Below are positions 1,730 to 19,535 of a DNA stretch of 64,000 bases, one piece after another; the stretch's first letter is position 1, and each line of letters begins with the position of its first letter. Below the pieces are notes generated by a model. The model saw nothing but the letters and a program-made list of their open reading frames with translations, made no database searches and had not been told where the DNA came from. Made by a program: the position numbers and the translations under genes. Source of the DNA: a virus; the IMG/VR virus record IMGVR_UViG_3300032287_001394, one strand, 5' to 3'.

Positions 1730-2338
1730 ATGCTCAAATTTAAAGAATACATAACAGAACAAAAAGAAGGCTACCTAAGCATATTTGACATAGATGACAC
1801 CTTATTCCATACGACTGCCCAAATCATAATCCGTAAGTCTGGTAAGGTTTTAAAGAAGCTGTCTTCAGCTGACTTTAACCATTATAAATTAGATCCTGGA
1901 GAGTCTGCAGACTTCTCAGAGTTTGAGGATGCAGAGAAGTTCAATAAAGAATCAACACCTATCACAAAGATGTTTAATAAGGCTAAGGCACTCCTTGCTG
2001 ATACCCACAAGCATCCAAACAATAAAGTCATCATAGTCACAGCAAGACCTGACTCAGATGATAAGAACAAATTCCTAGCCACCTTCCGTAAGTACGGCTT
2101 CCCAATCGATAATGTAAGGGTAGAAAGGGCTGGCAAGATATCAGCACTATCTGCTCCGCAATCAAAAGCAATCATCATCCACAACTATCTACAAACCAAA
2201 CAATTTAATAAAGTAAGGCTGTTCGATGATAGTATAAATAACCTAAAGGAGTTTCTCAAGTTAGAGAAACATTTTCCAGATGTTAAGTTTACAGCTTGGC
2301 ATGCACATATAGATGGGTCAGTGAGACAAGTAAAATGA
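1730..2338 (+). CDS. HAD-superfamily phosphatase with capsid-targeting-like N-terminus
   Basis: FDIDDTL motif I, VTAR motif II, FDDS motif IV; N-terminus MLKFKEYITE. Confidence 0.8.
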   Translation: MLKFKEYITEQKEGYLSIFDIDDTLFHTTAQIIIRKSGKVLKKLSSADFNHYKLDPGESADFSEFEDAEKFNKESTPITKMFNKAKALLADTHKHPNNKVIIVTARPDSDDKNKFLATFRKYGFPIDNVRVERAGKISALSAPQSKAIIIHNYLQTKQFNKVRLFDDSINNLKEFLKLEKHFPDVKFTAWHAHIDGSVRQVK

Positions 2339-3522
2339 TAGAATTTAAGCAATTCATAACAGAAGCCAAAGATGATGGCAAAGTAAAGCATATCCACCAT
2401 CCAGAGGATAGACCATTAATCGATGGTAAGAAGGGTTTTGAACATGCTATGGGTGTCTTACATCAAGCTTCTGAACATGTAGCTAAAGGTAAGAACGATT
2501 CAAGCATGACGATGAAGTACGACGGCTCTCCAGCTATTGTATTCGGTCATGACCCAAAGACAAAGAAGTTCTTTGTAGCTTCTAAGTCTGCATTCAATAA
2601 GAACCCAAAGATCAACTATACTCCTGAAGACATCGAACGAAACCATGGCCATGCGCCAGGTCTTGTAGAGAAGCTTAAGGATGCATTAGCACACTTACCT
2701 AAGATAGCACCTAAAGAAGGTGTATTCCAAGGCGACCTAATGTTTAGTGGTAAAGATGTAAGGCATAACCCAAACGGATCAGCATCATTCACACCTAATA
2801 CCATCACATACTCTGCACATGGTACAGAAGCACATGCGGTCAAGAAAGCTAAACTTGGCGTGGTAGTCCATACTCAATATAATGGTAGAAACCTGGCAGA
2901 CATGAAAGCTTCACCACAATTAACACATAAGTTTAAGACACATACTGATGTATGGAATAAACCTGCAACACATAATTCTAGTATAACAAACTATTCACCA
3001 GCTGACCAACTTAAGTTTAAAAAACATATGGAAGCTGCACAAAAGATCCATACAGAAGGTGGTAAACAGATGTATACTGCTACTGAACAGCATCATGGCG
3101 AAGGTGGTCATCTAGCTACTTACATCAATCAAACTGTTCGTAACGTAGCAAAGCCTACGGCCCAAGGATTACAACAACACATCATGGATAAGTCTCAGAT
3201 CGTTCAATCAAGACTTAAGACTGCAGCAAAAGCACAAGAGAAACAACAGTCAGCACAAGCAGAAGTCAACTATATCCAAAAGAACCGAGAACACTATGAC
3301 AACCTATTAAAGATGCATCAACACCTTGCTGCAGCAAAGAACGTATTAGTCAGTACACTTAACCAACATCCTGGTACCCTTAGTCATCATATCGATGGTA
3401 AAGAGACACATCCAGAAGGTTACGTGGTGACACATAAGAATGAACCTACAAAGTTAGTAAACAGAGCAGAGTTCAGCAGAGCAAACCTAATGAAAGTGAG
3501 GAAACCAAATGTTAACGTTTAA
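2335..3522 (+). CDS. Conserved T4-like protein with ligase-like nucleotidyltransferase motifs
   Basis: Start re-set to ATG 2335 (ATGA overlap); KYDG, FQGDL, EGYVV and KLV motifs in order; N-terminus MIEFKQFITE. Confidence 0.6.
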   Translation: MIEFKQFITEAKDDGKVKHIHHPEDRPLIDGKKGFEHAMGVLHQASEHVAKGKNDSSMTMKYDGSPAIVFGHDPKTKKFFVASKSAFNKNPKINYTPEDIERNHGHAPGLVEKLKDALAHLPKIAPKEGVFQGDLMFSGKDVRHNPNGSASFTPNTITYSAHGTEAHAVKKAKLGVVVHTQYNGRNLADMKASPQLTHKFKTHTDVWNKPATHNSSITNYSPADQLKFKKHMEAAQKIHTEGGKQMYTATEQHHGEGGHLATYINQTVRNVAKPTAQGLQQHIMDKSQIVQSRLKTAAKAQEKQQSAQAEVNYIQKNREHYDNLLKMHQHLAAAKNVLVSTLNQHPGTLSHHIDGKETHPEGYVVTHKNEPTKLVNRAEFSRANLMKVRKPNVNV

Positions 3523-3784
3523 AGAATACTTAGAAGAAGACAAATATAAATCAGAGACTGGTGGATTGACTCGTGCTGGTGTAGATAAGTATAATAGAGA
3601 AAATCCAGGAAGTAACTTGAAGATGGCTGTGACGACTCCTCCATCAAAGTTAGACCCTAAAGGTAAAGCCGCAGGAAGACGTAAATCGTTCTGTGCTCGT
3701 ATGGGCGGAGTTAAAGGTCCTATGAAAGACGAAAACGGTAAACCAACAAGGAAAGCATTAGCATTAAGGAAATGGAATTGTTAA
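3509..3784 (+). CDS. Small basic conserved phage protein
   Basis: RRKSFCARM...ALRKWNC motif; N-terminus MLTFKEYLEE. Confidence 0.7.
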   Translation: MLTFKEYLEEDKYKSETGGLTRAGVDKYNRENPGSNLKMAVTTPPSKLDPKGKAAGRRKSFCARMGGVKGPMKDENGKPTRKALALRKWNC

Positions 3785-4386
3785 ACTTTAAAGACTTCAT
3801 TACAGAGGACAAAGACCCACAACACCACCACGTGTTGGCTTTTGGTCGTATGAACCCTCCAACTTCTGGCCATATGGCAGTAATTAACAAAGTTCATGAT
3901 GTGGCTAAGAAGCAAGGCGCAGAACACACTGTCGTGACTTCACACAGCCATGATCCTAAGAAAAACCCATTGTCTCCTCAACAAAAGAAGAAACACCTTA
4001 AACGATTTGCACCAGGTACAAACTTTGAGTCATCATCTGCAGAACATCCAACTATCCTACATCACGCAGCAGAACTACATAAGAAAGGTGTCACACACCT
4101 ACATGTAGTAGTAGGATCAGATCGTAAGAAAGAGATGACATCCTTATTAAATAGGTATAATAATAAGAAGTCTAGTCATGGTCACTATAACTTTAAGAAG
4201 ATAACTGTACACTCTGCAGGTCAAAGAGATCCTGATTCAGAGGGTGCAAGTGGAGTATCAGGTACTAAACAAAGAGAGCATGCCCGTACTGGTAACTATG
4301 CGGCGTTCCGCAAGGGCGTACCAGAACATGTATCGCATGCACACGCTAAAGAATTGATGCACGACGTACAACATGGAAGCAAATAG
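3772..4386 (+). CDS. Cytidylyltransferase-like (HxGH-class) nucleotidyltransferase
   Basis: FGRMNPPTSGH, VVGSDR, SAGQRDPD, SGTK motifs. Confidence 0.8.
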   Translation: MELLNFKDFITEDKDPQHHHVLAFGRMNPPTSGHMAVINKVHDVAKKQGAEHTVVTSHSHDPKKNPLSPQQKKKHLKRFAPGTNFESSSAEHPTILHHAAELHKKGVTHLHVVVGSDRKKEMTSLLNRYNNKKSSHGHYNFKKITVHSAGQRDPDSEGASGVSGTKQREHARTGNYAAFRKGVPEHVSHAHAKELMHDVQHGSK

Positions 4387-7300
4387 TGACAGACTTAAAT
4401 GAATTATTCAAGGTCATAGCAGAAGGTAAAAAACAGTACGAAGAGACTGATCCTATAGGCCAACAAATCAAGCAAGCTAAAGAGCATGTTAAGGAAGACT
4501 TAAGCTCACTATTTGCACAGTTATCAACCCTCAAAGAAGACCTAGAAAAAGAATTAGTAGTAGAAGAAGCCAAGTTAGTAAGCCTTATCGATTCAGATTC
4601 AATCAAGCGTGATGCTAAAAACATCGTTAATGAAGTATTTGGTCAGATTCAAAAACCAATTATCACTGAAGAAATCCCTGCTCAGCCAGTTATCCATACA
4701 CCAGAAGTCAGAGCAAAACAAGTCGATGCAGATGTTGACAAGTATCTGACAGACAAATCATTCCAACAACCAAATCCCGATCTAGTAACTAAAAACATTG
4801 ATGACATCCGTAATAAGATTAAGTTCTTAGAGCAAGCCATTGGTCGTGTTGCTGCTGCCGGTCCAGGTGGCGGTGAAGTTAACCTCAGATATTTAGATGA
4901 CGTAGATCGTTCAACTATTACAGATGGTTGGTACTTAAGATACAATGCAACTAAGAAAAAATTCGAATTTGCAGAAGTAATATCAAGCGGTGGTAACGGA
5001 GCTACTGGTCCTGCTGGTGCAACTGGTCCAGGTGGAGGAGATACTGGAGCTACTGGCATTACAGGTTCAAGTGGAGCACAAGGAGCTTCAGGATTAAATG
5101 GTTCTACAGGTCCCACAGGAGCTAATGGAGTAAGTGGAGCATCCGGTACTAACGGTGCAACTGGTATTCAAGGAGCTTCAGGTACACAAGGATCTACAGG
5201 AGTTCAAGGTGCAAGTGGAAGTACTGGTTTAACTGGTGCCACAGGATTGACTGGTGCATCTGGCCCATCAGGAGCAAGCGGAGTTAATGGCTCCACAGGA
5301 ATTCAAGGAACTAGCGGTGTTCAAGGTGCTTCAGGTTCAACAGGTATAGACGGAGCTAGTGGAGCAACAGGTTTACAAGGAGCATCTGGTATTAATGGTG
5401 CTACAGGAACAAGTGGAGCTTCAGGAGTTAATGGTTCAACCGGTATTAGTGGTGCAACTGGAATCGACGGAGCATCTGGCATTCAAGGAGCTTCAGGTTC
5501 TACTGGTATTAGTGGAGCATCTGGTGTTGGAGTTCAAGGGGCAAGTGGAAGTACAGGATTAACTGGAGCCACGGGAATACCGGGTGCTTCTGGAATTGGT
5601 GGTGCAACGGGGGCATTGCCAGACTTGCCAACAGGCGAACCAATGGGTCATACTGATAGAACACAATCAATTATATCTTTTGATGATGCATCCCGAACAT
5701 TTAGTATATCACCAGTTGCCGCTTCATTTGAAATATGGACAAGAGGTGTTAAAAGAACTATCACTGATACTCGACAAGTAACTATTCCAGACACTACTGG
5801 ATTATATTATATCTATTTTGATCCAGATGGAATTTTGCAATATAGAACAACATTCTTTGATTGGCCAAATGATTGCGTAACAGCATATGTTTATTGGAAT
5901 GATGTAACAAATGATGCTCCATTTGTAGCAGATGAAAGACATGGTATTGTTTTAGATTGGCAAACACATGAGTATCTACATAGAACTCGTGGAGCAGCAA
6001 TTGCAAATGGATTTGATGCTACAAACTATATTGTAAATGGGGATGGATCTTTAGATTCACATATGCAAATTGATATTGCATCTGGTACTTTCTTTGATGA
6101 AGATCTACAAGTAGATATTGTTAATACAAATACTCCAGTAGCTAATACGTGGGATCAAGATCTAGCGGGTCCAGCTAGGATACCTATGTTCTATATTAAT
6201 AGTGCTGGCGGTTGGGTTATAGATACTCCAACTAACTTTCCTGTTAAAATGGGTACTTTACCAAAATATAATCTATATTCTGGTGGTGTTTGGACTACTC
6301 CAGATATTGATAACAATAAATTTGGTATTACATTTATTATTGCAACAAATAATATTAACTATCCAGTTATAGGAATCATAGGCCAAAATTCACATGCAAA
6401 TCAAGGAGATGCTGAAGCAGTTGACTTTTCAGAACTAAATCTTGCCGGATTTCCAGTTGTTGAGATGAGACCTCTTTATAAATTAGTATATGAATGTAAA
6501 GCTAGTTACACAAATTCTGTTAATGCACGTTTAAAATCTATATGGGATCAAAGAAGTTTTGAAAGTACAGTTTCAGCTATAGCAACATATACTGATCATG
6601 GAGCTTTAGGTGGTTTATCTGATGACGATCACCCACAATATCTACTAAGAACTGATGCTGTTTCATTTGTAGGTGCGACAGGTGCTACTGGTATTCAAGG
6701 CGCATCAGGTTCTACAGGATTAACTGGGGCTACAGGAATAAGTGGTGCTTCAGGAATAAGTGGTGCTTCAGGAATAAGTGGCTCGGCTTCTACTTTAACA
6801 GGAACATCTCTTGCGACTGGAATTGTATCATCAAGTTTAACATCAGTTGGTACATTAACTAATTTGTCAGTCACAAACACTATTACTGGATCAGTGAGTG
6901 GCAATGCTGGTACTGTAACCAACGGAGTTTACACAAATAGTATAGGTGCTGTCACGGACATAATGTTAGCCGGGTCGATTGCTAACAACAAACTAACCAA
7001 TAGTTCAATAACTGTAAATGGAACAGATATTAGTTTAGGATCAAGTGCTACTATCCTAGCCGCTAATCCAAACGCCTTAACTATTGGCACTGGATTAAGT
7101 GGTACAAATTATACCGGCGCTTCAGCAGTCACAATCGCATTGGCTTCGGGTTATGGTGATACACAGAACCCTTATGCCAGTAAGACAGCCAACTATTTCC
7201 TAGCCGCACCAAACGGATCTAATGGGGTTCCAACATTCCGTGCTATTGTAGCCGCTGACATACTGGGTACACTAAATCAAAATACCACAGGCTCAGCGGC

Positions 7301-9083: not shown

Positions 9084-9320
9084 ATGTCAGTATTAAACGA
9101 ACTAAGAGCAGCAATGACAGAGCCAGGTATCAAAGGTGCATTGGCCCAACAGTTACATGATATCACAGAACAATACAATGATGGCATCCTAAATGGTGAT
9201 GAGTTCAAAGACTTGGTTACCCAGATAGGTGACGTACAAGCTAACGATGATCTTGCAGGAGATGAGATAACTTCAAGATGGGTCGCAAATATTACGAAAG
9301 TGATACTCTCCGCTGTATAA
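9084..9320 (+). CDS. Hypothetical protein
   Basis: 78-aa ORF packed between neighbours. Confidence 0.7.
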   Translation: MSVLNELRAAMTEPGIKGALAQQLHDITEQYNDGILNGDEFKDLVTQIGDVQANDDLAGDEITSRWVANITKVILSAV

Positions 9321-9323
9321 ATA
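9316..9323 (+). promoter_or_regulatory. Late promoter
   Basis: TATAAATA upstream of ATG 9358. Confidence 0.75.
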
Positions 9324-9357: not shown

Positions 9358-10935
9358 ATGAAGAACTATAGACAACTCATAAAGGGTTTGCCTTCCAAGA
9401 CCGTCATCATGACAGTCGGAAGCTTTAACCCTCCTACCTCGGTCAACGAGATGGCATTCAAACTAGTAGATAAGCTAGTTGAATCCCATAATGCTGACCA
9501 CATAATCTACGTTACAGAAGACAAGGACAACTTACCTATTGATCGTAAGCTGCACTTCCTTGAGCTCATGTTTGGTGCTATGAACTTTAAGCCATTGAAC
9601 GAGTCAAACCTAACTTCTGAACTAATCAGATTAAAGAGTAAGTATAAAGATGTTATCGTAGTATCTTCAGAAGATAAAGCCAAGCTATATGAGTCATTAC
9701 AAGTGGTTACTACAAGCAACGACTTAGACCATTCTAAGATCAAGTCATATGTAACAAAAGGCGACTTTGCCTCATTTAAGAAACAGATGCCTTCTACACT
9801 AAGAGAGCTGGATGCTCGTAGGCTAATGAACGAGATGAGACAAGTTACTGGCCTCGAGTTACTCAAAGAAGAAGTCAAGTTCACAGTCGATGCACTCAGA
9901 GAGAAGTATTTTAAAGGTCAGATCTACCACATAGGTGATATCGTTGAGTCTGCTGGACAACAGTACGAGATCATGGATCGTGGTTCAAACTACCTTGTGG
10001 TAGTTAATAATACTGGTGACCTATCACGCAAATGGATAAAAGACGTAAAGTTAGTAGAAGCATGCTGGTCTGGATATAAACAAGTTGGCACTAAGAAAAA
10101 AGGCAGCAGAACGGTCCCTAACTGTGTACCAGAATCTGTATTAAACCCTGCAGATCCACATAAAGACTATGCTGAGAAGAGCAAGACTCTACAAGACTTG
10201 TCACGTAACAAAGACGTAGATCAAAAATCTGTACAACAAAGACGCTTAGATCTAGACAAAGAATACGGTAAACTTAAAGAAGAAGTATTTAGCTATAAAG
10301 GCTATGTACCTAAGAACCTTAACAGTGAGTTAGTAGAAGCATTCAAGCTTGTCGCTGTAGACTCTAAAGATCCTGTAGCAATGCTTAATGCTATCAAAAC
10401 AACTGATACATACTTACAACTACATGGTAAGATTGGTGACAATCCAGATATCAATCAGCTTAAGACATATAAAGATGCTCACATTAAAGCTACTGAAGCC
10501 TTACAAAAGATTGGTGTATACAATGCTGAAGAAGAGAAGCCAGATACTAAGTTAGCAAGAAACGTATTAACATATCAAGACTTCATGAAAGCTGGCAAAG
10601 AACCTGTGCCTGAAAATACAGAGAAATATGTAGGTGAACCTCATACGACTCCAGGTCATACACTTGCTACACGTCAACATCTACGTAGACAAAAGGTTGC
10701 ATATGTAAATGAAGCTGCATCAGTTACAGATGGAGAAGTAGAAGGACAAGTGGTTACTAAGATTAAACCGTTACCACCTGAACTAACTCCACCGCCTGAT
10801 GAACCAGGTAAACAAAGAGGTAAAGGCAATAGTGCTTTCTTTGAGAAGAAGAATAAGAAAGTAGAGAAAGAAGCTCTAGACTACCTTGACTTAGATTCAT
10901 GGTTAAGACAACAATCACAACAGGCACACGGATAA
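9358..10935 (+). CDS. Degenerate cytidylyltransferase-like domain plus appended small modules
   Basis: GSFNPPTSVN (HxGH motif lost); LREKYFKGQIY segment; ACWSGY...VPNCVPE module. Confidence 0.65.
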   Translation: MKNYRQLIKGLPSKTVIMTVGSFNPPTSVNEMAFKLVDKLVESHNADHIIYVTEDKDNLPIDRKLHFLELMFGAMNFKPLNESNLTSELIRLKSKYKDVIVVSSEDKAKLYESLQVVTTSNDLDHSKIKSYVTKGDFASFKKQMPSTLRELDARRLMNEMRQVTGLELLKEEVKFTVDALREKYFKGQIYHIGDIVESAGQQYEIMDRGSNYLVVVNNTGDLSRKWIKDVKLVEACWSGYKQVGTKKKGSRTVPNCVPESVLNPADPHKDYAEKSKTLQDLSRNKDVDQKSVQQRRLDLDKEYGKLKEEVFSYKGYVPKNLNSELVEAFKLVAVDSKDPVAMLNAIKTTDTYLQLHGKIGDNPDINQLKTYKDAHIKATEALQKIGVYNAEEEKPDTKLARNVLTYQDFMKAGKEPVPENTEKYVGEPHTTPGHTLATRQHLRRQKVAYVNEAASVTDGEVEGQVVTKIKPLPPELTPPPDEPGKQRGKGNSAFFEKKNKKVEKEALDYLDLDSWLRQQSQQAHG

Positions 10936-11389: not shown

Positions 11390-14101
11390 ATGAAATCATA
11401 CAAAGACATGGTAAACGAAGTATTAACTAAGATGACTCCATTAGAGACATGGATCGACGACTTCGTACACTCTAAGAATGCTAAGTTTGCTGGTAAGTCT
11501 ACAGCAGAACGTATATCTATGGCTAAGGGTGCATACTATGCTAAACAAAGACGTGAATCAGTAGAAGAAGCTGCAGCAGTATCGCAAAATAGTACAGCTA
11601 TCACTGACATGAACGAAGATCATTTAGTACACGTTAATGACGGTTCTAAATACGATGAACAACCACATGAAAAAGATGTGGAACATGTCAAATCGCACAT
11701 AGCACTTTTTGGTGGTAAGTTTGATAGTCATTCAGACAAAGGCGCATTCTTTAAATTTCCTGACAAAGATAAAGCTGAACGATTTGTCAATCATGCTAAT
11801 AAATGCCCACACAAGACATGCTCTGCAGAACATGTTACAGAAGCTGTAGAGTATAAAGGTATCGGTACAGACGTGGTTGACAAGAAAAAGAAACTAAACC
11901 CACAACCAAATTTTACAACTGATAAAAAACAAGTTAAAGACTTTAAAGAAGAAGTTAAAAAATCTACTGGCGATCTTAAGAAAGCATGCTGGAAAGGTTA
12001 CACTGCAGTTGGTCTTAAGATGAAAGATGGTAGAAAAGTGCCTAACTGTGTGCCTGAAGAAGTACAAGTACAAGTAGAAGCTAAAGTATATGATCCATTT
12101 ACAAAGAAGATGGTTCCTACTAAACCAATCAAAGTTCAAGCTGGTGGCGGCGCAACTAAGAACGGAGTTCCTGTTGAGACAGGTCCATCTAAGTATAAGA
12201 GTAAATTGCCTATGAGCAAAGCTGCAGGGGTATTAGCTGCAGAAGAAGTAGAACTAATCGCTAAGCATGAAGTTAAAGCTAATGCACCTCATAAATCAGG
12301 TGGTCATGTCATCTTAACTAAGTCATCTAATAAATGGCATGTATTACACAATAAGAAGAGCTCACCTGAAGCTAAAGATCTACATCGTTCAAAACTATTA
12401 CACTCATACGCTGATGAAAAAGAAGCAAGAGCTAAGTTTAAAGAATTACATGAAGAACAGATCGATGAGTTATCTAAAGGATTAGTTGCTAGATACGCAA
12501 ATAAAGTAGCAAAAACTACACAAGCTAATTATGATAAATCTAAAGATAAATTTCAATTCTCGTCAGGTAGACAAGATGGAATGAAAAATGCAGTTAAGAG
12601 ATTAACTAAAGAAGAAGTAGATTTGCACACAGATTTGTGGTCTATTAAAAATACAAAAACTGGTCAAGTATATCATAGTTCTGGTAAATATCCGATCACT
12701 AAAAATAGTCCTACATTCAAAAAAATTAAAGCTGCTGGTGGAGATCATGTACACGCTGCATTGTATAAAAACGGTAAATTAGTTGAAGAAACAGAACAGA
12801 TCGATGAAGTCTCTAAGTCAACATTAATGAGATACATCCCTAAAGCATCGAGAGATGTAGGTTCACACACTTATGCAGGTAAAGAAGCCGGTGAATGGGC
12901 AAGCCATTACACAAGAGCCGGTGACTGGTCTGCAGCAGAGAAACACTCTAAGAAATCTTATGCAGACTTTATGAAAGCAAACAAACGTATTGCTGGTATC
13001 GACACAGCTACTAAGAAGCTTGGTACACAAAAAGAAGAAGTAGAGTTAGATGAAGCTAAATACGGTATTGACGTTCATCGCAACAAGTTATCTAAACTAT
13101 TAACTCACGCTGGTAATGCTGGTATTAAAGCTAAAGTTGTTTCTCATAATCCAAATTGGGAAAAACAAAACGCTGGTGGCGAACATACAGTTTCTTTACA
13201 CGGTAAAGATGAACATATTCGTAAATTTATTCAAAAACATCATGACAGTGATCCACAGGGAACTGATGATTATAAAGAATATGGCAAATCACTTAAAGAA
13301 TCAGAACATATAGATGAAGCTATCGCTAAGAAGTTACCAGTACAACATGCAGTTGATGCAGTACATGCTACATTAGGTCCTAAATCAGCTACACGCTTCT
13401 TATCACACTTAAGCCCAGGTTCTGATAAGCATACTACATGGGATAAAGTAAACGATGCATTAGTGAAACAAGGTGTACAGACACATCACATTGCTTCTAT
13501 TGCACAAAAGACATCTCATATGAACGAAGAAGTTGTTGACGAATCAAGAGGTCATAAAGTATTAGCTACATTCTTTAAGAACCGAGAAGTTGCACAAAGA
13601 TCTTATCAAGGTAATCCTGCTAAGGATGCTGAAGTAGCTCAAGGTGGTGGTAGTCCAGCAGATCAAGGTATCGCTGCAGCTAAGAGAGACGCAGAAGAAC
13701 TTAAAAAAAAAGTAAGTGAGGCAAAGGCACCTGCAGTACACGCGGCTGAGCCTAAGAAGACAAAGTCTACGCCTAAGGAATATGCTAGCGCTACTATACC
13801 AGGTACAAAACGTGTAGCACATGCAAAGCCTGATGATAACGAAGTAGGTGGTGGTACTGCTACAAGGATTGCTGAAGATCAATATACGTCAGAGTATAAG
13901 ATCAAGTCTTATGTAGATCCGGTTACTGGTGAGAATAAGACTAGAAAGATTAGACCTCATCGTATTAATTTTAAATCATCTAAGATGAATGCTGCACCAG
14001 CACAAATGACAGAGCCAACAAAAGTTACAGAAGATGATAAAGTATACGATGAAAAATGGAAAAAAGTTAAATTTACAGATTTTATAAAGGGAGCTAAGTA
14101 A
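11390..14101 (+). CDS. Modular K/H/E-rich putative internal-head (poly)protein
   Basis: 903 aa; N-terminus MKSYKDMVNE; repeated EEQIDE/EEVELDE linkers. Confidence 0.6.
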   Translation: MKSYKDMVNEVLTKMTPLETWIDDFVHSKNAKFAGKSTAERISMAKGAYYAKQRRESVEEAAAVSQNSTAITDMNEDHLVHVNDGSKYDEQPHEKDVEHVKSHIALFGGKFDSHSDKGAFFKFPDKDKAERFVNHANKCPHKTCSAEHVTEAVEYKGIGTDVVDKKKKLNPQPNFTTDKKQVKDFKEEVKKSTGDLKKACWKGYTAVGLKMKDGRKVPNCVPEEVQVQVEAKVYDPFTKKMVPTKPIKVQAGGGATKNGVPVETGPSKYKSKLPMSKAAGVLAAEEVELIAKHEVKANAPHKSGGHVILTKSSNKWHVLHNKKSSPEAKDLHRSKLLHSYADEKEARAKFKELHEEQIDELSKGLVARYANKVAKTTQANYDKSKDKFQFSSGRQDGMKNAVKRLTKEEVDLHTDLWSIKNTKTGQVYHSSGKYPITKNSPTFKKIKAAGGDHVHAALYKNGKLVEETEQIDEVSKSTLMRYIPKASRDVGSHTYAGKEAGEWASHYTRAGDWSAAEKHSKKSYADFMKANKRIAGIDTATKKLGTQKEEVELDEAKYGIDVHRNKLSKLLTHAGNAGIKAKVVSHNPNWEKQNAGGEHTVSLHGKDEHIRKFIQKHHDSDPQGTDDYKEYGKSLKESEHIDEAIAKKLPVQHAVDAVHATLGPKSATRFLSHLSPGSDKHTTWDKVNDALVKQGVQTHHIASIAQKTSHMNEEVVDESRGHKVLATFFKNREVAQRSYQGNPAKDAEVAQGGGSPADQGIAAAKRDAEELKKKVSEAKAPAVHAAEPKKTKSTPKEYASATIPGTKRVAHAKPDDNEVGGGTATRIAEDQYTSEYKIKSYVDPVTGENKTRKIRPHRINFKSSKMNAAPAQMTEPTKVTEDDKVYDEKWKKVKFTDFIKGAK

Positions 14102-15882
14102 TGTTAAAGTTTAATGACTACTTAAAAGAGGCTGCATTGTCAGCTAAACAAAAGAAGATCGCAGCGGTCGCTGGCGACAAGGACAAGATTGATGCTGCAG
14201 ACTTAGCTGCTTTAAGAAACGGTAAGAAACCAGTTGAAGAAGCTAGTTGCTCTGGCAATATGAAGAAGGAAGAGCTCGTTGGCAATCAACATAAGCTTGA
14301 CAAGAATAAGAACGGCAAGTTAGATGCTCATGATTTTAAGTTACTTCGTAAAGAAGATAAAGATACCCATAGCCTGGATCATGAAATGGAAAAACATGGG
14401 GATACTTTTGGTCATCATCATGACTCATATGATCATGATAATAGTGATGTTGATAGATATTATGTTAAAAAACAAAAACAACATGTAAATGCTGCAGAAG
14501 AAGCTCTTAAAAAGGGTGATAAAAAAACTATGCATGCACATTTAACACATTTTTACCACCTTGCAGGAGAAGCACATGATTATGCAGGTAGAGATGAAGA
14601 ATCAGCTGAAGCTAGTGATTTAAAACATCATCATAAAAAATTAGCTGGTAAAGTCCATGTTAATGAAGAAGTAGAGTTAGACGAAGGTCGTGTTAAAGAA
14701 CTTGCAATGGATCTTAAAGATATGAGTCATGACGAGTTCCATAAACAATATGGTAAACCTAAGTCTCATTTCGATCCTACTAACTTTAAAAAACCAGTAG
14801 AACCTGGTAAAGGTATGGATCGTGCAAGAGCTTTAGCTCAACGCGGTATGCAATCATTATCTAAAGAAGAAGTAGAACGCATTGAAGAGAAGTTAACACA
14901 AATCGATGAGTTATCTAAGAAGACTTTAGGTTCATATGCTAAGAAAGCAACTAAAGATCTTAAATCACAAAAGACTAATTATGATTACCTACACTCAGAT
15001 GATGATGCAGAACATGAAGATGATGGTTCAGAAACTATGAAAGGCTTTGATGCTAGACGCATCCGTAATAAAGAAAAGGGTATCGATAGAGCTGTTAGTA
15101 AATTAGCTAAAGAAGAGACAGAACAAATCGATGAGTTATCAAAGAAGACTTTAGGTTCATATGTAAATAAAGCAGCTAAAGATTCACGTATCCATGGCCA
15201 AATAGCCACTGATTTTGAAAACACTGCTGATAAAGCTAGAAAGCAATCAAAGAAAGATTCTTTTGAAAGATTAAACAGAAAATATTTAGAAAAATCATGG
15301 AAGCGTGAAGATGGTATTGCTAAAGCTGTAGGTAAATTAACTAAAGAAGAAGTAGAGTTAGAAGAAGCTACTACTCGTAAAGACTTCCAAATGGTTGCTG
15401 ATCTTATCAAAGGTCATGAGTCTGCTGATAAACGTAAAGAGTTAGCTACACATCATGCTGGTATATTTGCTAAACAAAACCCTCGCTTCGATCATGCTAA
15501 GTTCATGAAAGCAGCTGGAGTTAATGAAGAAGTACAACAAGAAGTGTCACCATATCTTAAAGCAACACTTAAAGTTATGGATGAAGGTAAGATCGATAAC
15601 CTTAGAGATGCACAGAAGTTAAGACAAGATACACAATCTGCTTACGATAAGAACTACAAACCAGACACAAGTCATCCGCATATCCAAGTAGTTAAAGGTA
15701 ACGCGTATGGTGGTGCGAACCAAAAAGATGATGAAGGTGATGAGAAGCCTGATGAAACAAAAGAGAAAAAAGGTCGTGGCAGACCTACTGGATCTAAATC
15801 AGGTGCTAGACAAAAAGGTGGTGGACATGAAGACGGCGGTATTCCTGTGCATAACTTAAACTTGCCAAAATCATATAAATAG
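14101..15882 (+). CDS. Modular putative internal-head (poly)protein
   Basis: 593 aa; N-terminus MLKFNDYLKE; QIDELSKKTLGSY twice; EEVELDE/EEVELEE linkers. Confidence 0.6.
   Translation: MLKFNDYLKEAALSAKQKKIAAVAGDKDKIDAADLAALRNGKKPVEEASCSGNMKKEELVGNQHKLDKNKNGKLDAHDFKLLRKEDKDTHSLDHEMEKHGDTFGHHHDSYDHDNSDVDRYYVKKQKQHVNAAEEALKKGDKKTMHAHLTHFYHLAGEAHDYAGRDEESAEASDLKHHHKKLAGKVHVNEEVELDEGRVKELAMDLKDMSHDEFHKQYGKPKSHFDPTNFKKPVEPGKGMDRARALAQRGMQSLSKEEVERIEEKLTQIDELSKKTLGSYAKKATKDLKSQKTNYDYLHSDDDAEHEDDGSETMKGFDARRIRNKEKGIDRAVSKLAKEETEQIDELSKKTLGSYVNKAAKDSRIHGQIATDFENTADKARKQSKKDSFERLNRKYLEKSWKREDGIAKAVGKLTKEEVELEEATTRKDFQMVADLIKGHESADKRKELATHHAGIFAKQNPRFDHAKFMKAAGVNEEVQQEVSPYLKATLKVMDEGKIDNLRDAQKLRQDTQSAYDKNYKPDTSHPHIQVVKGNAYGGANQKDDEGDEKPDETKEKKGRGRPTGSKSGARQKGGGHEDGGIPVHNLNLPKSYK
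15874..15881 (+). promoter_or_regulatory. Late promoter
   Basis: TATAAATA, then AAGGAG RBS and ATG 15905. Confidence 0.8.
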
Positions 15883-15904: not shown

Positions 15905-16885
15905 ATGGCTTTATGGGGAAAAACAGATACTTTAGCTTCGGCTCCAAAGTATGTAGCAAGAAAGGCGGTATTCGATGCGCAAGCTAAAGTTAGCTCAGCG
16001 AACGATACTATCGACCTAACAGATGCAAATACAAACTTTTCAACTGGTGACGGTGTTGTTTACACTGGTGCTAGTGGTATTGGTTTAACACAAGGTACAG
16101 CATACTATGCGATGAGACAAACAGATAACACTATCAAGCTTGCTACTACAGAAGCTGGTGCTAAAGCTGGTGCTACAGGTATTAACCTAACAGCTGGCGC
16201 TACTGGTGCTATCGGTTACCTACAACGTAATGCTGAAGGTAATGAAGCAACTGGAGCATCAGGTGCTACTGGCTCTTCACTACAATTCTCACCTGCAGGT
16301 GATCATGTATACAATGGTCGTGACTTATACTTCATCGATGCTGATGAAGCACAACAAGCTGAAAACATTGCACGTGGTCTTAACACACCAGGTTGGACAA
16401 ACTATCGTTCATATACTGATGCTAATGGCAACGTTAGAAATAAATCAGAAGTATTAATTGCTATGGGTGCATATACTGGCGCTACTGGTTCTGGTACATT
16501 CCAAGCTCAAACTGGTGATGCTTCAGATGACACAGTATTAGTTGATGGTACAATCACTATCGGTACACAACCTGCAAGTCAATCTAAAGTTGCTGGTTCT
16601 GGCGCTGGTAACAAGGGTGTATTCACTGTTGTTGCTACATTAGCTGGTGCTGGTTCATTGACATATCAATGGCAAGTTCAAGAGTCATCAGAATCTGGTG
16701 CAACATGGACTAACGTATCACGTGGTTCTGGCGGTACAACAGCTACTTACACAACAGGTAATACAGCTGTAACAGCGTCACCAACTGGTGATACTAATGG
16801 AGACAAATATCGTGTTATCGTTTCTTCAACTGGTTCTACAAGCGTAACATCATCAACAGCAGTATTAACAGTAACAGCAAGCTAA
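15905..16885 (+). CDS. Virion structural/decoration protein with C-terminal Ig-like domain
   Basis: MALWG start, TPGW motif, QPASQS...LTYQWQ...YRVIVS...AVLTV Ig-like pattern. Confidence 0.7.
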   Translation: MALWGKTDTLASAPKYVARKAVFDAQAKVSSANDTIDLTDANTNFSTGDGVVYTGASGIGLTQGTAYYAMRQTDNTIKLATTEAGAKAGATGINLTAGATGAIGYLQRNAEGNEATGASGATGSSLQFSPAGDHVYNGRDLYFIDADEAQQAENIARGLNTPGWTNYRSYTDANGNVRNKSEVLIAMGAYTGATGSGTFQAQTGDASDDTVLVDGTITIGTQPASQSKVAGSGAGNKGVFTVVATLAGAGSLTYQWQVQESSESGATWTNVSRGSGGTTATYTTGNTAVTASPTGDTNGDKYRVIVSSTGSTSVTSSTAVLTVTAS

Positions 16886-16919: not shown

Positions 16920-17297
16920 ATGAATCAAATGTTGACAGAAGATAATTTTTTGACCTATGCGATGCATCATTACGACAATAGCCAATGCTATTCGTTGGAA
17001 GAGTTTAATGATGACTTGAAAAGGTTTCTTTACTTGAAGAAGTTATTCAATAGGTATAAGAGCGAGGCTGACTTAAAACAAAACCTCATCTTAAACCATT
17101 TAATAGTCATATATAATATATTCGGCGAACACGCCACTAATATGTTATTCTTTAAGATAGAAGAAGAGTATTGGGACACACTAATAACTTTCTTAGTATT
17201 CCTTAACAGGATGCCAGAAGAAGTGACTCAATATAATATAAAGTTATCAGAAGTTGAATTAGACAATCATATAATACAAACACTTAGGAAAATATAA
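16920..17297 (+). CDS. Conserved T4-like hypothetical protein
   Basis: EEFNDDLKRFLYLKKLF...LILNHLIVIYNIFG; start re-set to ATG 16920. Confidence 0.75.
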   Translation: MNQMLTEDNFLTYAMHHYDNSQCYSLEEFNDDLKRFLYLKKLFNRYKSEADLKQNLILNHLIVIYNIFGEHATNMLFFKIEEEYWDTLITFLVFLNRMPEEVTQYNIKLSEVELDNHIIQTLRKI

Positions 17298-17842
17298 TGT
17301 CGCAAATAGTAGACAATTTAATAGCTTACAGAGTACTCACTATGTTGGTTAAGCCCTTCAGCGAGACTGATGCCTATAGACTTGGCATCATCGATAATAA
17401 AGGAAAAAATCTCATAAAGCCTTCTTCGCTCTCTACAACAGAGCAGAAGAGTGCATACACGTTCCTACATCGACTAGTCTTTAATATGAAGAAGATAATC
17501 AACAAACTGCCGGGTGGAGAAAGCAAGTTAAAGAGTGTCATATCTGCATACTTCTTGATAAGAGAGTATTACGAAAAGAATGATAGATCAACTTCAATGA
17601 TGGAACAAAAGTTTCATAAACTAATGGAGACTGATGCTATCTTAGCAGAAGAATCTATATTAGTAGAGAAGTTTATTAAGAAGATCGAAGAAGAGGGTGA
17701 AGGCGGAGCTCCAGCAAACGTAACCGGTGCAGGAGTTTCAACAGACATCCCATTACCTAAGAAGAAAGATCTTGATAAGTATAAACAGACGAACCAAGCT
17801 GGTGTAGTGTCGATGGCTCGTCGTAATAATAAGGTGATGTAA
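17297..17842 (+). CDS. Conserved T4-like hypothetical protein
   Basis: PFSETDAYRLGIID...AYTFLHRLVFNMKK. Confidence 0.75.
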   Translation: MSQIVDNLIAYRVLTMLVKPFSETDAYRLGIIDNKGKNLIKPSSLSTTEQKSAYTFLHRLVFNMKKIINKLPGGESKLKSVISAYFLIREYYEKNDRSTSMMEQKFHKLMETDAILAEESILVEKFIKKIEEEGEGGAPANVTGAGVSTDIPLPKKKDLDKYKQTNQAGVVSMARRNNKVM

Positions 17843-17843
17843 T

Positions 17844-18443
17844 ATGTGGTTATTGAATATTATACCCGATAGTATACTGTACGGGTTTATCTTATCTGTA
17901 ATGGGTATTGGTGCAGCGCTATTTGTATTTGGTACATTTACTGTATTCCTTCCATTAGTTAAAACGTATGGATTATTAATGAGGACAGTTGGTATCATCT
18001 TACTCATTGGAAGCGTATATCTATATGGTGGATATGGTACTGAAATGAAGTGGAGAGCTGAAGCTGCCAAACTTAAGGCAGACATGGACCGTAAGGTAGC
18101 ATTGTCAGAAAAGAAGTCAAAACAAATAGTAACTAAGTATGTAGTACAAACAAAAGTAATCAAGGAGAAGGGTGATGCAATTAAGAAGTTATCTCAACAT
18201 GTTAAAGAAGCTGATGCTAAGTGCATTGTGCCTAAGTCTTTTGTCTTGCTCCACGATTCTGCCGCAAAAAATGAAGTTCCCGACACCTCCGCAGGAGTTA
18301 ATGGTTCCGCCTCCAGAACTAATCTCTCTACCATCGGAGAAACAGTAACAATTAACTATAACAACTATCATCAGTTAAGTGAGCAATTAAAAGCGTTACA
18401 AGACTGGGTAAGTTCACAAGAGAAGATCTATAATGGCAAATAG
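17844..18443 (+). CDS. Membrane protein, possible spanin (Rz-like)
   Basis: Two N-terminal TM segments, coiled coil, CIVPKSFVLLHD and QLKALQDWV. Confidence 0.5.
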   Translation: MWLLNIIPDSILYGFILSVMGIGAALFVFGTFTVFLPLVKTYGLLMRTVGIILLIGSVYLYGGYGTEMKWRAEAAKLKADMDRKVALSEKKSKQIVTKYVVQTKVIKEKGDAIKKLSQHVKEADAKCIVPKSFVLLHDSAAKNEVPDTSAGVNGSASRTNLSTIGETVTINYNNYHQLSEQLKALQDWVSSQEKIYNGK

Positions 18444-18822
18444 TAACGAATTAGAACAATTAGAGCGAATAGTTCTTAAGTTAGATGATTCAATTGATAA
18501 GTTAACAGAGGTTTCTGCTAACATCAGTAAATTACTAGCCGTACAGGAACAGCGTATGAATACAATAGAAAAAGATACAGATAGGAATCAAGATGATATC
18601 CGTCATTTGTATAGCAAACTTGATTCAGTATCTAAAGCTTTAACAGATAAGATGGATGAATCAATGAAGAATTCATCTGCTGGTCATGATCGCATTGAGA
18701 AAGCTTTCGAACTTAAAGTAGAAGAAGTTAATAAAAGATTAAATGCATTAGAAGCATGGCGCTGGTTGGTTATTGGAGGCGCGATTGTAATCGGTTGGTT
18801 TGTTAATAGATTCTTTAAATGA
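18433..18822 (+). CDS. Coiled-coil protein with C-terminal TM helix
   Basis: Heptad-rich body, LEAWRWLVIGGAIVIGW tail. Confidence 0.7.
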   Translation: MANSNELEQLERIVLKLDDSIDKLTEVSANISKLLAVQEQRMNTIEKDTDRNQDDIRHLYSKLDSVSKALTDKMDESMKNSSAGHDRIEKAFELKVEEVNKRLNALEAWRWLVIGGAIVIGWFVNRFFK

Positions 18823-19535
18823 ACTATACGCAATATATCACCGAATTAAAACTTCAATTACAGTATCATTCTGAATTGAATCCCAAACTATGGGATGATT
18901 TCCAATTAAAATCTCAAGTAAGAGACAAACTACTTCAGTTTGCAGAAGTGTGGAGAGAATTTGCTAAAATACCTAAAAACGCTGTCAAAGAAGTTATCCT
19001 TCTCGGGGGAAACGCTAATTACAATTATACTGATATGTCTGACCTTGACGTACATTTGGTCGTTGACAAGTCTTTAATCGCTAAAGATAATCCATTATTA
19101 GATGACTACCTACAAGACAAGAAACAAATGTGGACTATGGCCCACAAGATTACTATCCTTGGTTATGGATTAGAACCATACGCACAAGATGAGTCTGTAC
19201 AATACCCAAAGAATCAAGGCGTGTATTCATTAACAAACGATGAATGGATATGTAAACCAGTATTCATTGGCGATGAGATGATTAAGGACCCATACCTTAA
19301 GAAAAAGGTTAAGTTCTATATGCATATGATAGATGACATGATTAAAAACCATGTAGACCTTGACTCAGTAAAACACTTCAAAGAAAAACTTAGAGACATG
19401 AGAGGTGCTGCCATTAAACGCGGTGGAGAATTTTCCTTTGAAAACCTAGTCTTTAAAGAACTACGCAACCAAGGATACTTAGATAAACTATCCGCCTATC
19501 AAAGAACTAATCAAGATCAAGAATTGAGTTTATAA
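18819..19535 (+). CDS. Pol-beta-superfamily nucleotidyltransferase
   Basis: LLGGNANYNY...SDLDVH (hG[GS]...DxD); N-terminus MNYTQYITE. Confidence 0.75.
   Translation: MNYTQYITELKLQLQYHSELNPKLWDDFQLKSQVRDKLLQFAEVWREFAKIPKNAVKEVILLGGNANYNYTDMSDLDVHLVVDKSLIAKDNPLLDDYLQDKKQMWTMAHKITILGYGLEPYAQDESVQYPKNQGVYSLTNDEWICKPVFIGDEMIKDPYLKKKVKFYMHMIDDMIKNHVDLDSVKHFKEKLRDMRGAAIKRGGEFSFENLVFKELRNQGYLDKLSAYQRTNQDQELSL

What the first reader, a model, noticed from the sequence alone, without database searches (positions are those of the whole stretch)
1730..19535. Enzymes carrying capsid-targeting N-termini: a candidate injected RNA/nucleotide repair kit
Seen: seven ORFs begin with a shared short leader ending in a hydrophobic-x-E motif: MLKFKEYITE (1730, HAD phosphatase), MIEFKQFITE (2335), MLTFKEYLEE (3509), MELLNFKDFITE (3772, cytidylyltransferase), MKSYKDMVNE (11390), MLKFNDYLKE (14101), MNYTQYITE (18819, Pol-beta NTase). 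Known: T4 internal proteins use a similar 10-residue capsid targeting sequence (MKTYQEFIAE-like) that prohead protease gp21 removes after Glu. Inference: these enzymes are packaged and injected with the DNA. A phosphatase, a ligase-fold protein and nucleotidyltransferases together resemble an end-healing/sealing set that could counter host tRNA-cleaving or nucleotide-depleting defences before any phage transcription.
Basis: partly seen in the sequence, partly recalled or inferred. Interest (0 to 1): 0.85.

Follow-up and report, generated by a model that had tools for sequence, protein, structure and literature searches.

The report
Capsid-targeting leaders on phage enzyme cargo
An uncultured aquatic T4-like phage puts the short address tag that T4 uses to load proteins into its head on seven or eight late proteins, four of them predicted enzymes, so it probably carries ready-made enzymes in its capsid; this also explains why a "cytidylyltransferase" keeps appearing in cyanophage particles.

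Summary
The motif [FY]-x-[DEQ]-[FYM]-[ILV]-x-E occurs eight times in all six frames of the window. Seven occurrences lie 2-5 residues after the start Met of a real ORF (expected about 0.005). An eighth gene (9358) has the same leader with Glu10 changed to Gly.

The leader matches the T4 capsid targeting sequence at the four positions shown to matter in T4. One DNA pattern finds IPII, IPIII and gp61.1 in T4, and in cyanophage S-SM1 only the start of its cytidylyltransferase. That protein was detected in purified virions. In S-CREM2, orthologues of two window genes (3772 and 18819) were also detected in virions.

Further support:
- A collinear, 99%-complete relative encodes a gp21-type head protease.
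- 63 of 77 DUF6267 orthologues have a TATAAATA late promoter just upstream.
- Synonymous codons show the constraint acts on the peptide.

The folds support an RNA-ligase-like enzyme, an HAD phosphatase, a HIGH-motif nucleotidyltransferase and a Pol-beta nucleotidyltransferase. Packaging is therefore well supported, though cleavage and injection remain untested. The "RNA repair kit" role is plausible but unproven, and the window has no kinase.

This scan has noted similar leaders in other T4-like phages.

The parts
1730..2338 (+). HAD-type phosphatase (202 aa, pI 9.4) with leader MLKFKEYITE (1730-1759)
   Evidence: DIDDT motif. phrog_415 'polynucleotide kinase' E 5.6e-9 and Pfam DUF2608 E 3.3e-5. 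The leader is present in close contigs, but the 60%-identical G001 orthologue lacks it.
2335..3522 (+). DUF6267, a ligase-like covalent nucleotidyltransferase (395 aa, pI 9.6, 7.8% His) with leader MIEFKQFITE (2335-2364)
   Evidence: Pfam DUF6267 E 2.9e-96. K61/D63/G64, E361/G362 and K373 are nearly invariant. AF2 pLDDT is 94 with residues 1-11 disordered. The top 15 structural matches are all ligases, RNA ligases first at Z 8.6-7.0. The leader is on 81 orthologous ORFs in relatives.
3509..3784 (+). DUF6321, a small basic protein (91 aa, pI 10.0) with leader MLTFKEYLEE (3509-3538)
   Evidence: Pfam DUF6321 E 3.1e-24. The leader is conserved on 37 orthologous ORFs of 55-365 aa.
3772..4386 (+). 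HIGH-motif (cytidylyltransferase-like) nucleotidyltransferase (204 aa, pI 9.8, 11.8% His) with leader MELLNFKDFITE (3772-3807)
   Evidence: Pfam CTP_transf_like 23.2 bits (cut-off 21) and TIGR00125 29.8 bits (cut-off 27.7). The G-R-x-N-P-P-T-x-G-H and S-G-T-K-x-R motifs are invariant or nearly so. Orthologues S-SM1 SSM1_190 (MKKFSAFLNE) and S-CREM2 gp154 (MKNFSSFLTE) were detected in virions.
9358..10935 (+). 525-aa protein with a degenerate nucleotidyltransferase N-domain (TSVN in place of TxGH), further modules, and the leader-like start MKNYRQLIKG (9358-9387)
   Evidence: phrog_395/3041 cytidyltransferase hits. Relatives have MKNYRQLIKE or ...IRE. The G variant is shared by L003, L004, L005 and L014. 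TATAAATA lies at 9316 and at -37 to -42 in 6 of 10 orthologues.
11390..14101 (+). 903-aa basic modular protein with leader MKSYKDMVNE (11390-11419), a candidate polyprotein
   Evidence: It has repeated acidic linkers (EEQIDELSK, ETEQIDEVSK, KEEVELDE) that carry [LI]-x-E sites. Orthologue lengths range from 201 to 1093 aa.
14101..15882 (+). 593-aa basic/acidic modular protein with leader MLKFNDYLKE (14101-14130), a candidate polyprotein
   Evidence: It has the repeated linkers NEEVELDE, TQIDELSKKTLGSY (twice) and KEEVELEE. The leader is conserved on 11 orthologues of 256-860 aa.
18819..19535 (+). Pol-beta-superfamily nucleotidyltransferase-like protein (238 aa) with the short leader MNYTQYITE (18819-18845)
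   Evidence: G63 G64 ... S74 D75 x D77 are invariant. AF2 pLDDT is 89 with residues 1-7 disordered. Foldseek top hits are ANT(9), ANT(6), MNT antitoxins and CD-NTases at E 1e-3 to 1e-1. The 49%-identical S-CREM2 gp156 (MKKLISE...) was detected in virions.
2233..2240 (+). TATAAATA, a T4-type late-promoter consensus 102 nt upstream of the DUF6267 start
   Evidence: Of 77 DUF6267 orthologues, 63 have TATAAATA within 200 nt upstream, mostly at -52/-53 or -102. The background is 2.4% per 200-nt window.
9316..9323 (+). TATAAATA 42 nt upstream of gene 9358
15905..16885 (+). Neighbouring cluster gene without a leader: head/'S-layer domain' protein preceded by TATAAATA at 15874
   Evidence: phrog_613 head protein E 1.3e-35. 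Its N-terminus matches S-SM1 SSM1_195 (T4-GC425), which was detected in virions.

Best explanation
The region is the late 'head cargo' module of an uncultured aquatic T4-like myovirus (Kyanoviridae-like). It lies just upstream of the gene 61 primase, the same place as the virion-protein cluster between gp41 and gp61 in cyanophage S-SM1.

Seven proteins begin with a roughly 10-residue leader, M-x-x-[FY]-x-x-[FYM]-[ILV]-x-E, and an eighth has a variant of it. This leader is the counterpart of the T4 capsid targeting sequence MKTYQEFIAE.

Inferred mechanism:
- The leader binds the proteins to the scaffolding core while the prohead assembles.
- The gp21-type prohead protease then cuts after the Glu.
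- The mature basic proteins stay in the head with the DNA.
- They probably leave with the DNA at infection, as T4 IPI-III and Alt do.

Predicted cargo:
- An HAD phosphatase.
- An RNA-ligase-like adenylyltransferase (DUF6267).
- A HIGH-motif nucleotidyltransferase.
- A Pol-beta-type nucleotidyltransferase.
- A small basic DUF6321 protein.
- Two or three large modular proteins whose repeated I-D-E and L-D-E linkers suggest they are cut into small basic pieces.

What is shown: the motif, its conservation, the late promoters, the protease in a relative, the folds, and virion detection of orthologues.

What is inferred: targeting, cleavage, injection and any enzymatic role. The most likely role is nucleic-acid end healing and sealing or nucleotidyl transfer early in infection, at about 25-30%.
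For: Motif in the window and its relatives:
- 7 of 8 strict-motif hits in six frames are at ORF starts, against about 0.005 expected.
- In 80 related IMG/VR loci (about 1 Mb), the loose motif is N-terminal 234 times and internal 84 times. It sits on orthologues of DUF6267 (81), the cytidylyltransferase (34), DUF6321 (37), and genes 9358, 14101, 11390 and the HAD gene.
- Among 150 diverse DUF6267 representatives, 67 have the leader. Leaderless forms start exactly at the domain (KLKHLEHxED), so the leader is a separable module.
- Synonymous codons are used at F4, [FY]7, [LIV]8 and E10, so selection acts on the peptide.
- The leader is disordered in both AF2 models.

Match to T4:
- T4 positions 4 and 7 direct targeting, and 8 and 10 direct processing (PMC9026906).
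- The pattern ATG-N6-TWY-N6-TWY-NTN-NNN-GAR hits T4 three times: ipII, ipIII and gene 61.1. The reversed-pattern control hits none.
- In S-SM1 the only hit is the start of T4-GC190, the cytidylyltransferase.

Virion proteomics on orthologues:
- T4-GC190 was found in purified S-SM1 virions with 25 peptide counts (PMC3037559 Table S8).
- S-CREM2 gp154 (cytidylyltransferase, MKNFSSFLTE) and gp156 (49% identical to gene 18819) were detected in CsCl-purified virions (PMC10665884).
- The S-SM1 DUF6267 orthologue has no leader and is not in the virion table.

Assembly machinery and timing:
- G001, a 160-kb relative that is 99% complete and collinear at 70-85% nt identity, has Peptidase_S77 (gp21) and the portal, gp67-like, gp22 and gp23 genes.
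- TATAAATA lies upstream of 63 of 77 DUF6267 orthologues, against a 2.4% background.

Protein properties:
- The leader proteins are basic, with pI 9.4-10.
- The five leader proteins with a single recognised domain have 2 internal [LI]xE sites against 6.0 expected, while other genes run at observed/expected 1.26.
Against: - No prohead protease or capsid gene lies in the window itself, and no whole genome is held. The protease evidence comes from a relative.
- Cleavage after Glu and injection are untested anywhere in this phage group.
- S-PM2 and Syn9 virion proteomes did not detect the cytidylyltransferase (Table S8), although those data sets were shallower.
- The S-CREM2 authors themselves warn that abundant late proteins might co-purify with virions.
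- Leader presence varies among close orthologues: the HAD gene in G001 lacks it, and so does DUF6267 in cyanophages. These enzymes therefore also work without packaging.
- The depletion of internal cleavage sites rests on small numbers (about p 0.02).
- The strict motif was defined from the same seven sequences.
Confidence: 0.75

Rival explanations
1. The leader does target the proteins to the prohead, but they act only as core or scaffold material and DNA-charge neutralisers. In this reading the protease cuts them up, they are largely expelled or remain inert, and no active enzymes are delivered to the next host.
For: - Genes 9358, 11390 and 14101 are rich in repeated [LI]-x-E linkers: 23 sites against 15 expected.
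- The cargo is basic, like the T4 internal proteins.
- T4 gp22, gp67 and gp68 are cut to fragments that leave the head (PMC5694885).
- The nucleotidyltransferase motif in gene 9358 is degenerate.
Against: - Catalytic motifs are nearly invariant across thousands of DUF6267 homologues and in the cytidylyltransferase and 18819 families.
- The enzyme domains are depleted of internal [LI]xE sites.
- Twenty-five peptide counts for the cytidylyltransferase in mature S-SM1 virions argue that it persists.
Confidence: 0.12
2. The shared N-terminus is not a capsid address. It might be a relic of recombination between paralogous 5' ends, a translation-initiation or downstream-box feature of late mRNAs, or a tag for another location such as membrane assembly sites. 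Virion detection of the orthologues would then be carry-over of abundant late proteins.
For: - The S-CREM2 authors raise possible carry-over.
- Leaders come and go between close orthologues, as expected for a recombining module.
- All leader genes sit in one roughly 18-kb cluster.
Against: - The conservation is at the amino-acid level, not the nucleotide level.
- The same pattern marks T4 IPII and IPIII, whose leader has been shown experimentally to be sufficient for packaging.
- In S-SM1 the cytidylyltransferase with a leader is in the virion, and the neighbouring DUF6267 without a leader is not.
- Two independent proteomes agree.
Confidence: 0.08
3. Alternative for the functional half: the packaged enzymes do not repair RNA. 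They might act on nucleotide cofactors or small molecules (NMN/NAD-type adenylyl transfer, nucleotide dephosphorylation), or on host defence proteins (AMPylation of HEPN-type toxins by the MNT-like enzyme), or on the injected DNA's own ends or nicks.
For: - The cytidylyltransferase-like profile hits only the HIGH-motif superfamily weakly: MJ0951/UPF0348 at E 0.004, and PPAT and NMNAT at E about 1.
- The S-CREM2 paper calls it an NMNAT homologue.
- Gene 18819 resembles ANT and MNT adenylyltransferases.
- DNA ligases also match DUF6267, at Z 5.5-6.7.
- The window has no kinase.
- The HTVC008M HAD protein is NT5C-like.
Against: - RNA ligases rank above DNA ligases for DUF6267.
- The HAD protein hits the Pnkp PHROG.
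- The HTVC008M cluster adds a Zeta/AAA_33 P-loop kinase, which would complete a kinase, phosphatase and ligase set.
Confidence: 0.35

Closest known systems
T4 internal proteins IPI, IPII and IPIII and their capsid targeting sequence (Mullaney & Black 1996; reviewed in PMC9026906)
   Same: A 10-residue N-terminal leader with an aromatic residue at 4, a hydrophobic or aromatic residue at 7, I/L/V at 8 and Glu at 10. The mature proteins are basic and the genes are late. A gp21-type protease is present in the lineage. One DNA pattern detects both sets.
   Different: The cargo here is 7-8 proteins, including four with enzyme folds and 500-900-aa modular proteins, rather than three small non-enzymatic proteins. 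The genes form one cluster next to the primase gene. Packaging and cleavage have not been shown.
T4 Alt ADP-ribosyltransferase (packaged, injected enzyme; N-terminal propeptide cut at ITE-6, PMC5694885)
   Same: An enzyme loaded into the head through a short N-terminal propeptide ending in [IL]-x-E. Orthologues of gene 18819 have 6-7-residue leaders (MKTLNE, MKKLISE) like that of Alt.
   Different: The enzyme families are different. No C-terminal propeptide was examined here.
Virion-associated 'cytidylyltransferase' of cyanomyoviruses (T4-GC190 in S-SM1, PMC3037559; gp154 in S-CREM2, PMC10665884)
   Same: It is an orthologue of gene 3772, at 39% and 31% identity. It lies in the same cluster upstream of gp61 and has the same leader (MKKFSAFLNE, MKNFSSFLTE).
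   Different: Neither paper links the virion detection to a capsid targeting sequence. I found no paper that does, though only open-access text was searched. The cyanophage proteins carry extra domains.
T4 RNA repair enzymes Pnkp (kinase plus HAD phosphatase) and Rnl1/Rnl2
   Same: An HAD DxDxT phosphatase that matches the Pnkp PHROG. A ligase-fold protein with KxDG whose best structural matches are RNA ligases, including Rnl1 and Rnl2.
   Different: The window has no kinase domain. The T4 enzymes are not packaged and have no leader. DUF6267 has a long helical insert and no detectable sequence similarity to Rnl1 or Rnl2.

Membership tests
T4-type CTS-bearing head cargo proteins | N-terminal leader of about 10 residues with aromatic or hydrophobic residues at positions 4 and 7 (the targeting determinants) | tested here: met
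   All seven leaders, and gene 9358, have F/Y at the equivalent of position 4 and F/Y/M/L at position 7. The determinants are taken from PMC9026906.
T4-type CTS-bearing head cargo proteins | [L/I/V]-x-E at the end of the leader (the gp21 processing site) | tested here: met
   Seven of seven leaders have it. Gene 9358 has I-K-G in this lineage, so it fails for that one protein.
T4-type CTS-bearing head cargo proteins | gp21-type (Peptidase_S77) prohead protease and a scaffolding core in the same genome | tested here: inconclusive
   Neither is in the 64-kb window, and no genome is held. Both are present in the collinear, 99%-complete relative G001 and in Melnitz.
T4-type CTS-bearing head cargo proteins | Late expression | tested here: met
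   TATAAATA lies at 2233 and 9316. It is conserved upstream of 63 of 77 DUF6267 orthologues against a 2.4% background. Transcription itself was not measured.
T4-type CTS-bearing head cargo proteins | Physical presence in purified virions | not testable with these tools
   There is published MS evidence for orthologues only: S-SM1 T4-GC190, and S-CREM2 gp154 and gp156.
T4-type CTS-bearing head cargo proteins | Removal of the leader by the protease, and ejection into the host | not testable with these tools
No data are available.
Covalent nucleotidyltransferases (ATP-dependent RNA/DNA ligases), for DUF6267 | Motif I KxDG with the catalytic lysine, plus motifs IV (EG) and V (K) | tested here: met
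   K61, D63, G64, E361, G362 and K373 are at least 90% conserved in 74 diverse sequences.
Covalent nucleotidyltransferases (ATP-dependent RNA/DNA ligases), for DUF6267 | Adenylyltransferase domain fold | tested here: met
   The AF2 model has pLDDT 94. The top 15 of 48,161 chains are all ligases: 5cot at Z 8.6, REL1 8.0, Trl1 7.6, Rnl2 7.4 and Rnl1 7.4. These Z values are moderate. Foldseek gave only E of 0.009 or worse.
HAD phosphatases (Pnkp-phosphatase-like), for gene 1730 | DxDxT nucleophile motif and the HAD fold | tested here: met
   The sequence has D-I-D-D-T at residues 20-24. phrog_415 scores E 5.6e-9, and DUF2608 scores 23.9 bits against a 22.6-bit cut-off. The fold was not modelled.
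HIGH-motif (cytidylyltransferase-like) nucleotidyltransferases, for gene 3772 | (H/T)xGH and ISxTxxR-type motifs | tested here: met
   T31-S-G33-H34 and S163-G-T-K166-x-R168 are present, and most of these positions are invariant in 19 sequences. The protein scores over the Pfam and TIGR00125 cut-offs. Substrate specificity is unresolved.
Pol-beta superfamily nucleotidyltransferases, for gene 18819 | G[GS]-x(9-13)-Dx[DE] motif on the minimal NTase fold | tested here: inconclusive
   The GG...SDLD motif is invariant. Foldseek top hits are all ANT, MNT or CD-NTase, but only at E 1e-3 to 1e-1. There is no Pfam hit.
T4-type RNA end-healing and sealing pathway (Pnkp plus Rnl) | 5'-OH polynucleotide kinase (P-loop) alongside the phosphatase and the ligase | tested here: not met
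   The window has no Walker-A kinase ORF. A Zeta_toxin/AAA_33 kinase sits in the equivalent cluster of Pelagibacter phage HTVC008M.

The most novel reading that the evidence does not exclude
Aquatic T4-like phages (this lineage, pelagiphage and methylophage relatives, and in part the cyanomyoviruses) load a ready-made set of nucleic-acid enzymes into the capsid through a T4-type address tag. The set comprises an RNA-ligase-like sealing enzyme, a 3'-phosphatase and two nucleotidyltransferases. The phages would inject these enzymes with the DNA, so that damage by host anticodon nucleases, HEPN RNases or nucleotide-depleting defences is repaired or blocked before any phage gene is expressed.
Probability: 0.2. 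Interest if true: 0.85.

Novelty: new member of a known kind. Interest (0 to 1): 0.66.

Why it matters
- It gives a mechanistic reason, a T4-type capsid targeting sequence, for a puzzling result: a "cytidylyltransferase" and neighbouring unknown proteins recur in virion proteomes of marine cyanophages.
- It extends CTS-directed cargo from three small T4 proteins and Alt to a multi-enzyme set in one of the most abundant phage groups in water.
- It assigns a fold and a likely chemistry (ligase-type adenylyl transfer) to DUF6267. This family has more than 2000 clusters at 50% identity, and I found no literature on it.
- It turns the question "what do marine T4-like phages inject besides DNA?" into one that can be tested by re-analysing existing mass-spectrometry data.

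Tried and rejected
- **Near-identity DNA search against phage records:** no match, so this phage is not in the 'phages' collection.
- **Whole genome:** none is held. I used the IMG/VR relative G001 instead.
- **phmmer of the four enzymes against PDB sequences:** no useful hits.
- **NCBIfam:** it adds only TIGR00125 for the cytidylyltransferase.
- **Foldseek against PDB:** no match at E of 1e-3 or better for either model. I relied on the consistency of the hit lists, the motifs and VIA-align.
- **TATAAATA count in the window as a whole:** not enriched, at 13 against 9.8 expected. The signal is positional, upstream of orthologues.
- **Walker-A scan for a kinase in the window:** negative.
- **Homologue of the HAD gene in T4, S-SM1 and Melnitz by six-frame search:** none at E of 1 or better.
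- **DUF6321 against T4 gp61.1:** the similarity is limited to the first 19 residues, so I do not claim that the domains are homologous.
- **Loose-motif hits rejected as chance or internal Met:** 25949 (inside nrdB) and the MQAYGPYVHE and MDWYADFVCE families in relatives.
- **Complex prediction of leader with protease or scaffold:** not attempted, because an enzyme-substrate pair is a poor use of that tool.

Full report
**What the window is.** The 64-kb window comes from an uncultured T4-like myovirus.
- It has no near-identical record among 50,697 phage genomes.
- Its proteins match Kyanoviridae best: Methylophilales phage Melnitz, Pelagibacter phage HTVC008M and many cyanomyoviruses.
- A 160-kb IMG/VR contig, G001 (99% complete by CheckV), is collinear with the window at 70-85% nucleotide identity. 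I used it as a stand-in for the missing genome.
- The finding's region lies directly upstream of the gene 61 primase, which starts at 20480.

- The strict motif [FY]-x-[DEQ]-[FYM]-[ILV]-x-E occurs eight times in the six-frame translation of the whole window. Seven occurrences are 2-5 residues after the start Met of the ORFs at 1730, 2335, 3509, 3772, 11390, 14101 and 18819.
- From the amino-acid composition, 0.25 hits are expected in the proteome and 0.005 at N-termini.
- The motif was written after seeing the seven leaders, so I tested it on other DNA. In 80 related IMG/VR loci (about 1 Mb), a looser form is N-terminal 234 times and internal 84 times. It sits on orthologues of the same gene families, with varied sequences such as MYSFLTFLKE, MQSFKTFLKE and MKSFLELVEE.
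- Codon usage shows TTT/TTC, TAT/TAC, six Leu/Ile/Val codons and GAA/GAG at the conserved positions. Selection therefore acts on the peptide, not on an RNA element.
Gene 9358 starts MKNYRQLIKG. More distant relatives have ...IKE or ...IRE, and the Gly is shared by the four closest contigs.

**Is it a capsid targeting sequence?** Several independent lines say it probably is.
- In T4, residues 4 and 7 of MKTYQEFIAE direct targeting, and residues 8 and 10 direct processing by gp21 (PMC9026906). The leaders here conserve exactly those positions.
- The DNA pattern ATG-N6-TWY-N6-TWY-NTN-NNN-GAR, taken from the window's leaders, hits the T4 genome three times: ipII, ipIII and the small gene 61.1. The reversed control hits none.
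- In cyanophage S-SM1 the pattern hits once, at the first codon of the T4-GC190 cytidylyltransferase (MKKFSAFLNE).
- G001 and Melnitz encode a Peptidase_S77 (gp21) protease. G001 also has portal, gp67-like, gp22 and gp23 genes.
- TATAAATA, the T4-type late promoter, lies within 200 nt upstream of 63 of 77 DUF6267 orthologues, mostly at -52/-53 or -102. The background is 2.4%. In the window it is at 2233 and 9316.
- The leader is disordered in both AlphaFold models.
- The leader is modular. Among 150 diverse DUF6267 representatives, 67 carry it, and the leaderless ones begin exactly at the conserved KLKHLEHxED. The HAD gene carries it in the window but not in G001.

**Experimental support from the literature.**
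- Sullivan et al. 2010 detected T4-GC190 in purified S-SM1 virions with 25 peptide counts. They also detected several neighbours from the same gp41-gp61 cluster: GC1453, 1454, 1455, 425 and 426 (PMC3037559 Table S8).
- The S-SM1 DUF6267 orthologue (GC71) has no leader and is absent from that table.
- In S-CREM2, gp154 (cytidylyltransferase, MKNFSSFLTE; 31% identical to gene 3772) and gp156 (49% identical to gene 18819; MKKLISE...) were detected in CsCl-purified virions (PMC10665884).
- The S-CREM2 authors note the "frequent detection" of cytidyltransferases in cyanophage virions. They do not mention a targeting sequence, and they caution about possible carry-over.
- I found no paper that connects these proteins to a CTS, and none on DUF6267. 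Only open-access text was searched.
- S-PM2 and Syn9 proteomes did not detect GC190. Those data sets were shallower.

**What the cargo is.**
- *Gene 1730* is an HAD phosphatase with a DIDDT motif. It matches the PHROG annotated as polynucleotide kinase, and DUF2608.
- *DUF6267 (2335)* has nearly invariant K61-x-D63-G64, E361-G362 and K373. Its model is confident (pLDDT 94). Its 15 best structural matches among 48,161 chains are all ligases. RNA ligases rank first (Naegleria nick-sealing ligase Z 8.6, REL1 8.0, Trl1 7.6, T4 Rnl2 and Rnl1 7.4), and DNA ligases score 5.5-6.7. These Z values are moderate, and the motifs carry much of the weight.
- *Gene 3772* is a HIGH-motif nucleotidyltransferase with intact TxGH and SGTKxR motifs. 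Its closest solved relative by profile is only MJ0951/UPF0348 at E 0.004, so its substrate is open.
- *Gene 18819* has an invariant GG...SDxD motif. Its fold lists only ANT, MNT and CD-NTase enzymes, with weak scores.
- *Gene 3509* is a small basic DUF6321 protein.
- *Genes 9358, 11390 and 14101* are long, modular and basic, with repeated acidic linkers (EEVELDE, QIDELSK) that carry [LI]-x-E. This fits earlier first-reader notes that they may be polyproteins cut by the head protease. I did not test that further.
- The five leader proteins with a single recognised domain have only 2 internal [LI]xE sites against 6.0 expected, while other genes run above expectation. This is weak evidence that they are built to survive the protease.

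**How it most likely works.** The proteins are made late and bind the scaffolding core through the leader. The shell encloses them, and the protease trims them after the leader Glu. In this lineage, gene 9358 is perhaps packaged uncut, since a substitution at position 10 (Asp in the T4 experiment) blocks processing but not targeting in T4. The proteins are then kept in the head with the DNA. By analogy with T4 IPs and Alt (PMC5694885) they would be ejected into the next host. Targeting, cleavage and ejection are all inferred.

**The "repair kit" idea.** It is reasonable but not established.
- For it: a Pnkp-like phosphatase, an RNA-ligase-like enzyme, and a Zeta/AAA_33 P-loop kinase in the equivalent HTVC008M cluster.
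- Against it: the window has no kinase, two nucleotidyltransferases have unknown substrates, and cyanophages keep DUF6267 without packaging it.
- Roles in cofactor or nucleotide chemistry, in AMPylation of host toxins, or in DNA end repair are not excluded.

**Novelty and score.** The mechanism is the known T4 one. What is new is the cargo, its breadth across aquatic T4-like phages, and the link to published but unexplained proteomics. This scan has flagged CTS-like leader sets in several other T4-related phages. I did not let that change the score. I rate this a new member of a known kind, with interest about 0.66.

Noticed in passing
L097:267-431 (T4 NC_000866 18966-19130, gene 61.1): T4 gp61.1 (54 aa) starts MKTFKEFIKE, a CTS-like leader, and lies next to primase gene 61, the same position as this cluster. 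Small Gly-rich proteins with the same layout (leader, EDGMG..GPTN.., basic tail) occur in relatives such as L071, L029, L051 and L068. This may be an overlooked T4 head peptide.
   Followed up: partly
window 9358-10935: The N-domain is a paralogue of the 3772 nucleotidyltransferase, but its TxGH motif reads T-S-V-N, so it is probably inactive. In this lineage its leader has also lost the cleavage Glu (E10G).
   Followed up: partly
window 10070-10130 and 12000-12060 (protein residues ~235-258 of gene 9358 and ~199-222 of gene 11390): A short Cys-containing module, CW-x-GY...G-x-K-x-K-x-G...VPNCVPE, recurs in both large proteins. Similar CW-x-GY/CWPG stretches occur in small leader proteins of relatives. 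Its function is unknown.
   Followed up: no
window 4386-8696: A 1436-aa collagen-repeat tail-fibre gene starts (GTG) at the stop of the cytidylyltransferase-like gene. It seems to be co-transcribed with the cargo operon from the late promoter at 2233.
   Followed up: no
L099:397-1488:- (G001), L001:10923-12008, L100:7914-8972: Relatives carry an additional leader-bearing protein of about 360 aa (MLSFNDFLVE, MQGFKTFLSE, MLSFTGYSNLSE) just upstream of DUF6267. It has no Pfam match. The window has the HAD gene in that position instead.
   Followed up: partly
L100:10709-11371 (Pelagibacter phage HTVC008M): A Zeta_toxin/AAA_33 P-loop kinase (start MIPFILKE) sits between the DUF6267 and cytidylyltransferase genes of the pelagiphage cluster. 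An NT5C-type HAD protein lies further downstream.
   Followed up: partly
window 1730-4386: The leader-bearing enzymes are unusually rich in histidine: 11.8% in gene 3772 and 7.8% in DUF6267, often as HH or HxH runs. This may reflect metal binding or DNA interaction.
   Followed up: no
window 29688-34069: A run of ORFs has signal-peptide or lipoprotein-like N-termini downstream of a TATAAATA at 29160. Another first-reader note calls this a curli-like locus. I did not examine it.
   Followed up: no
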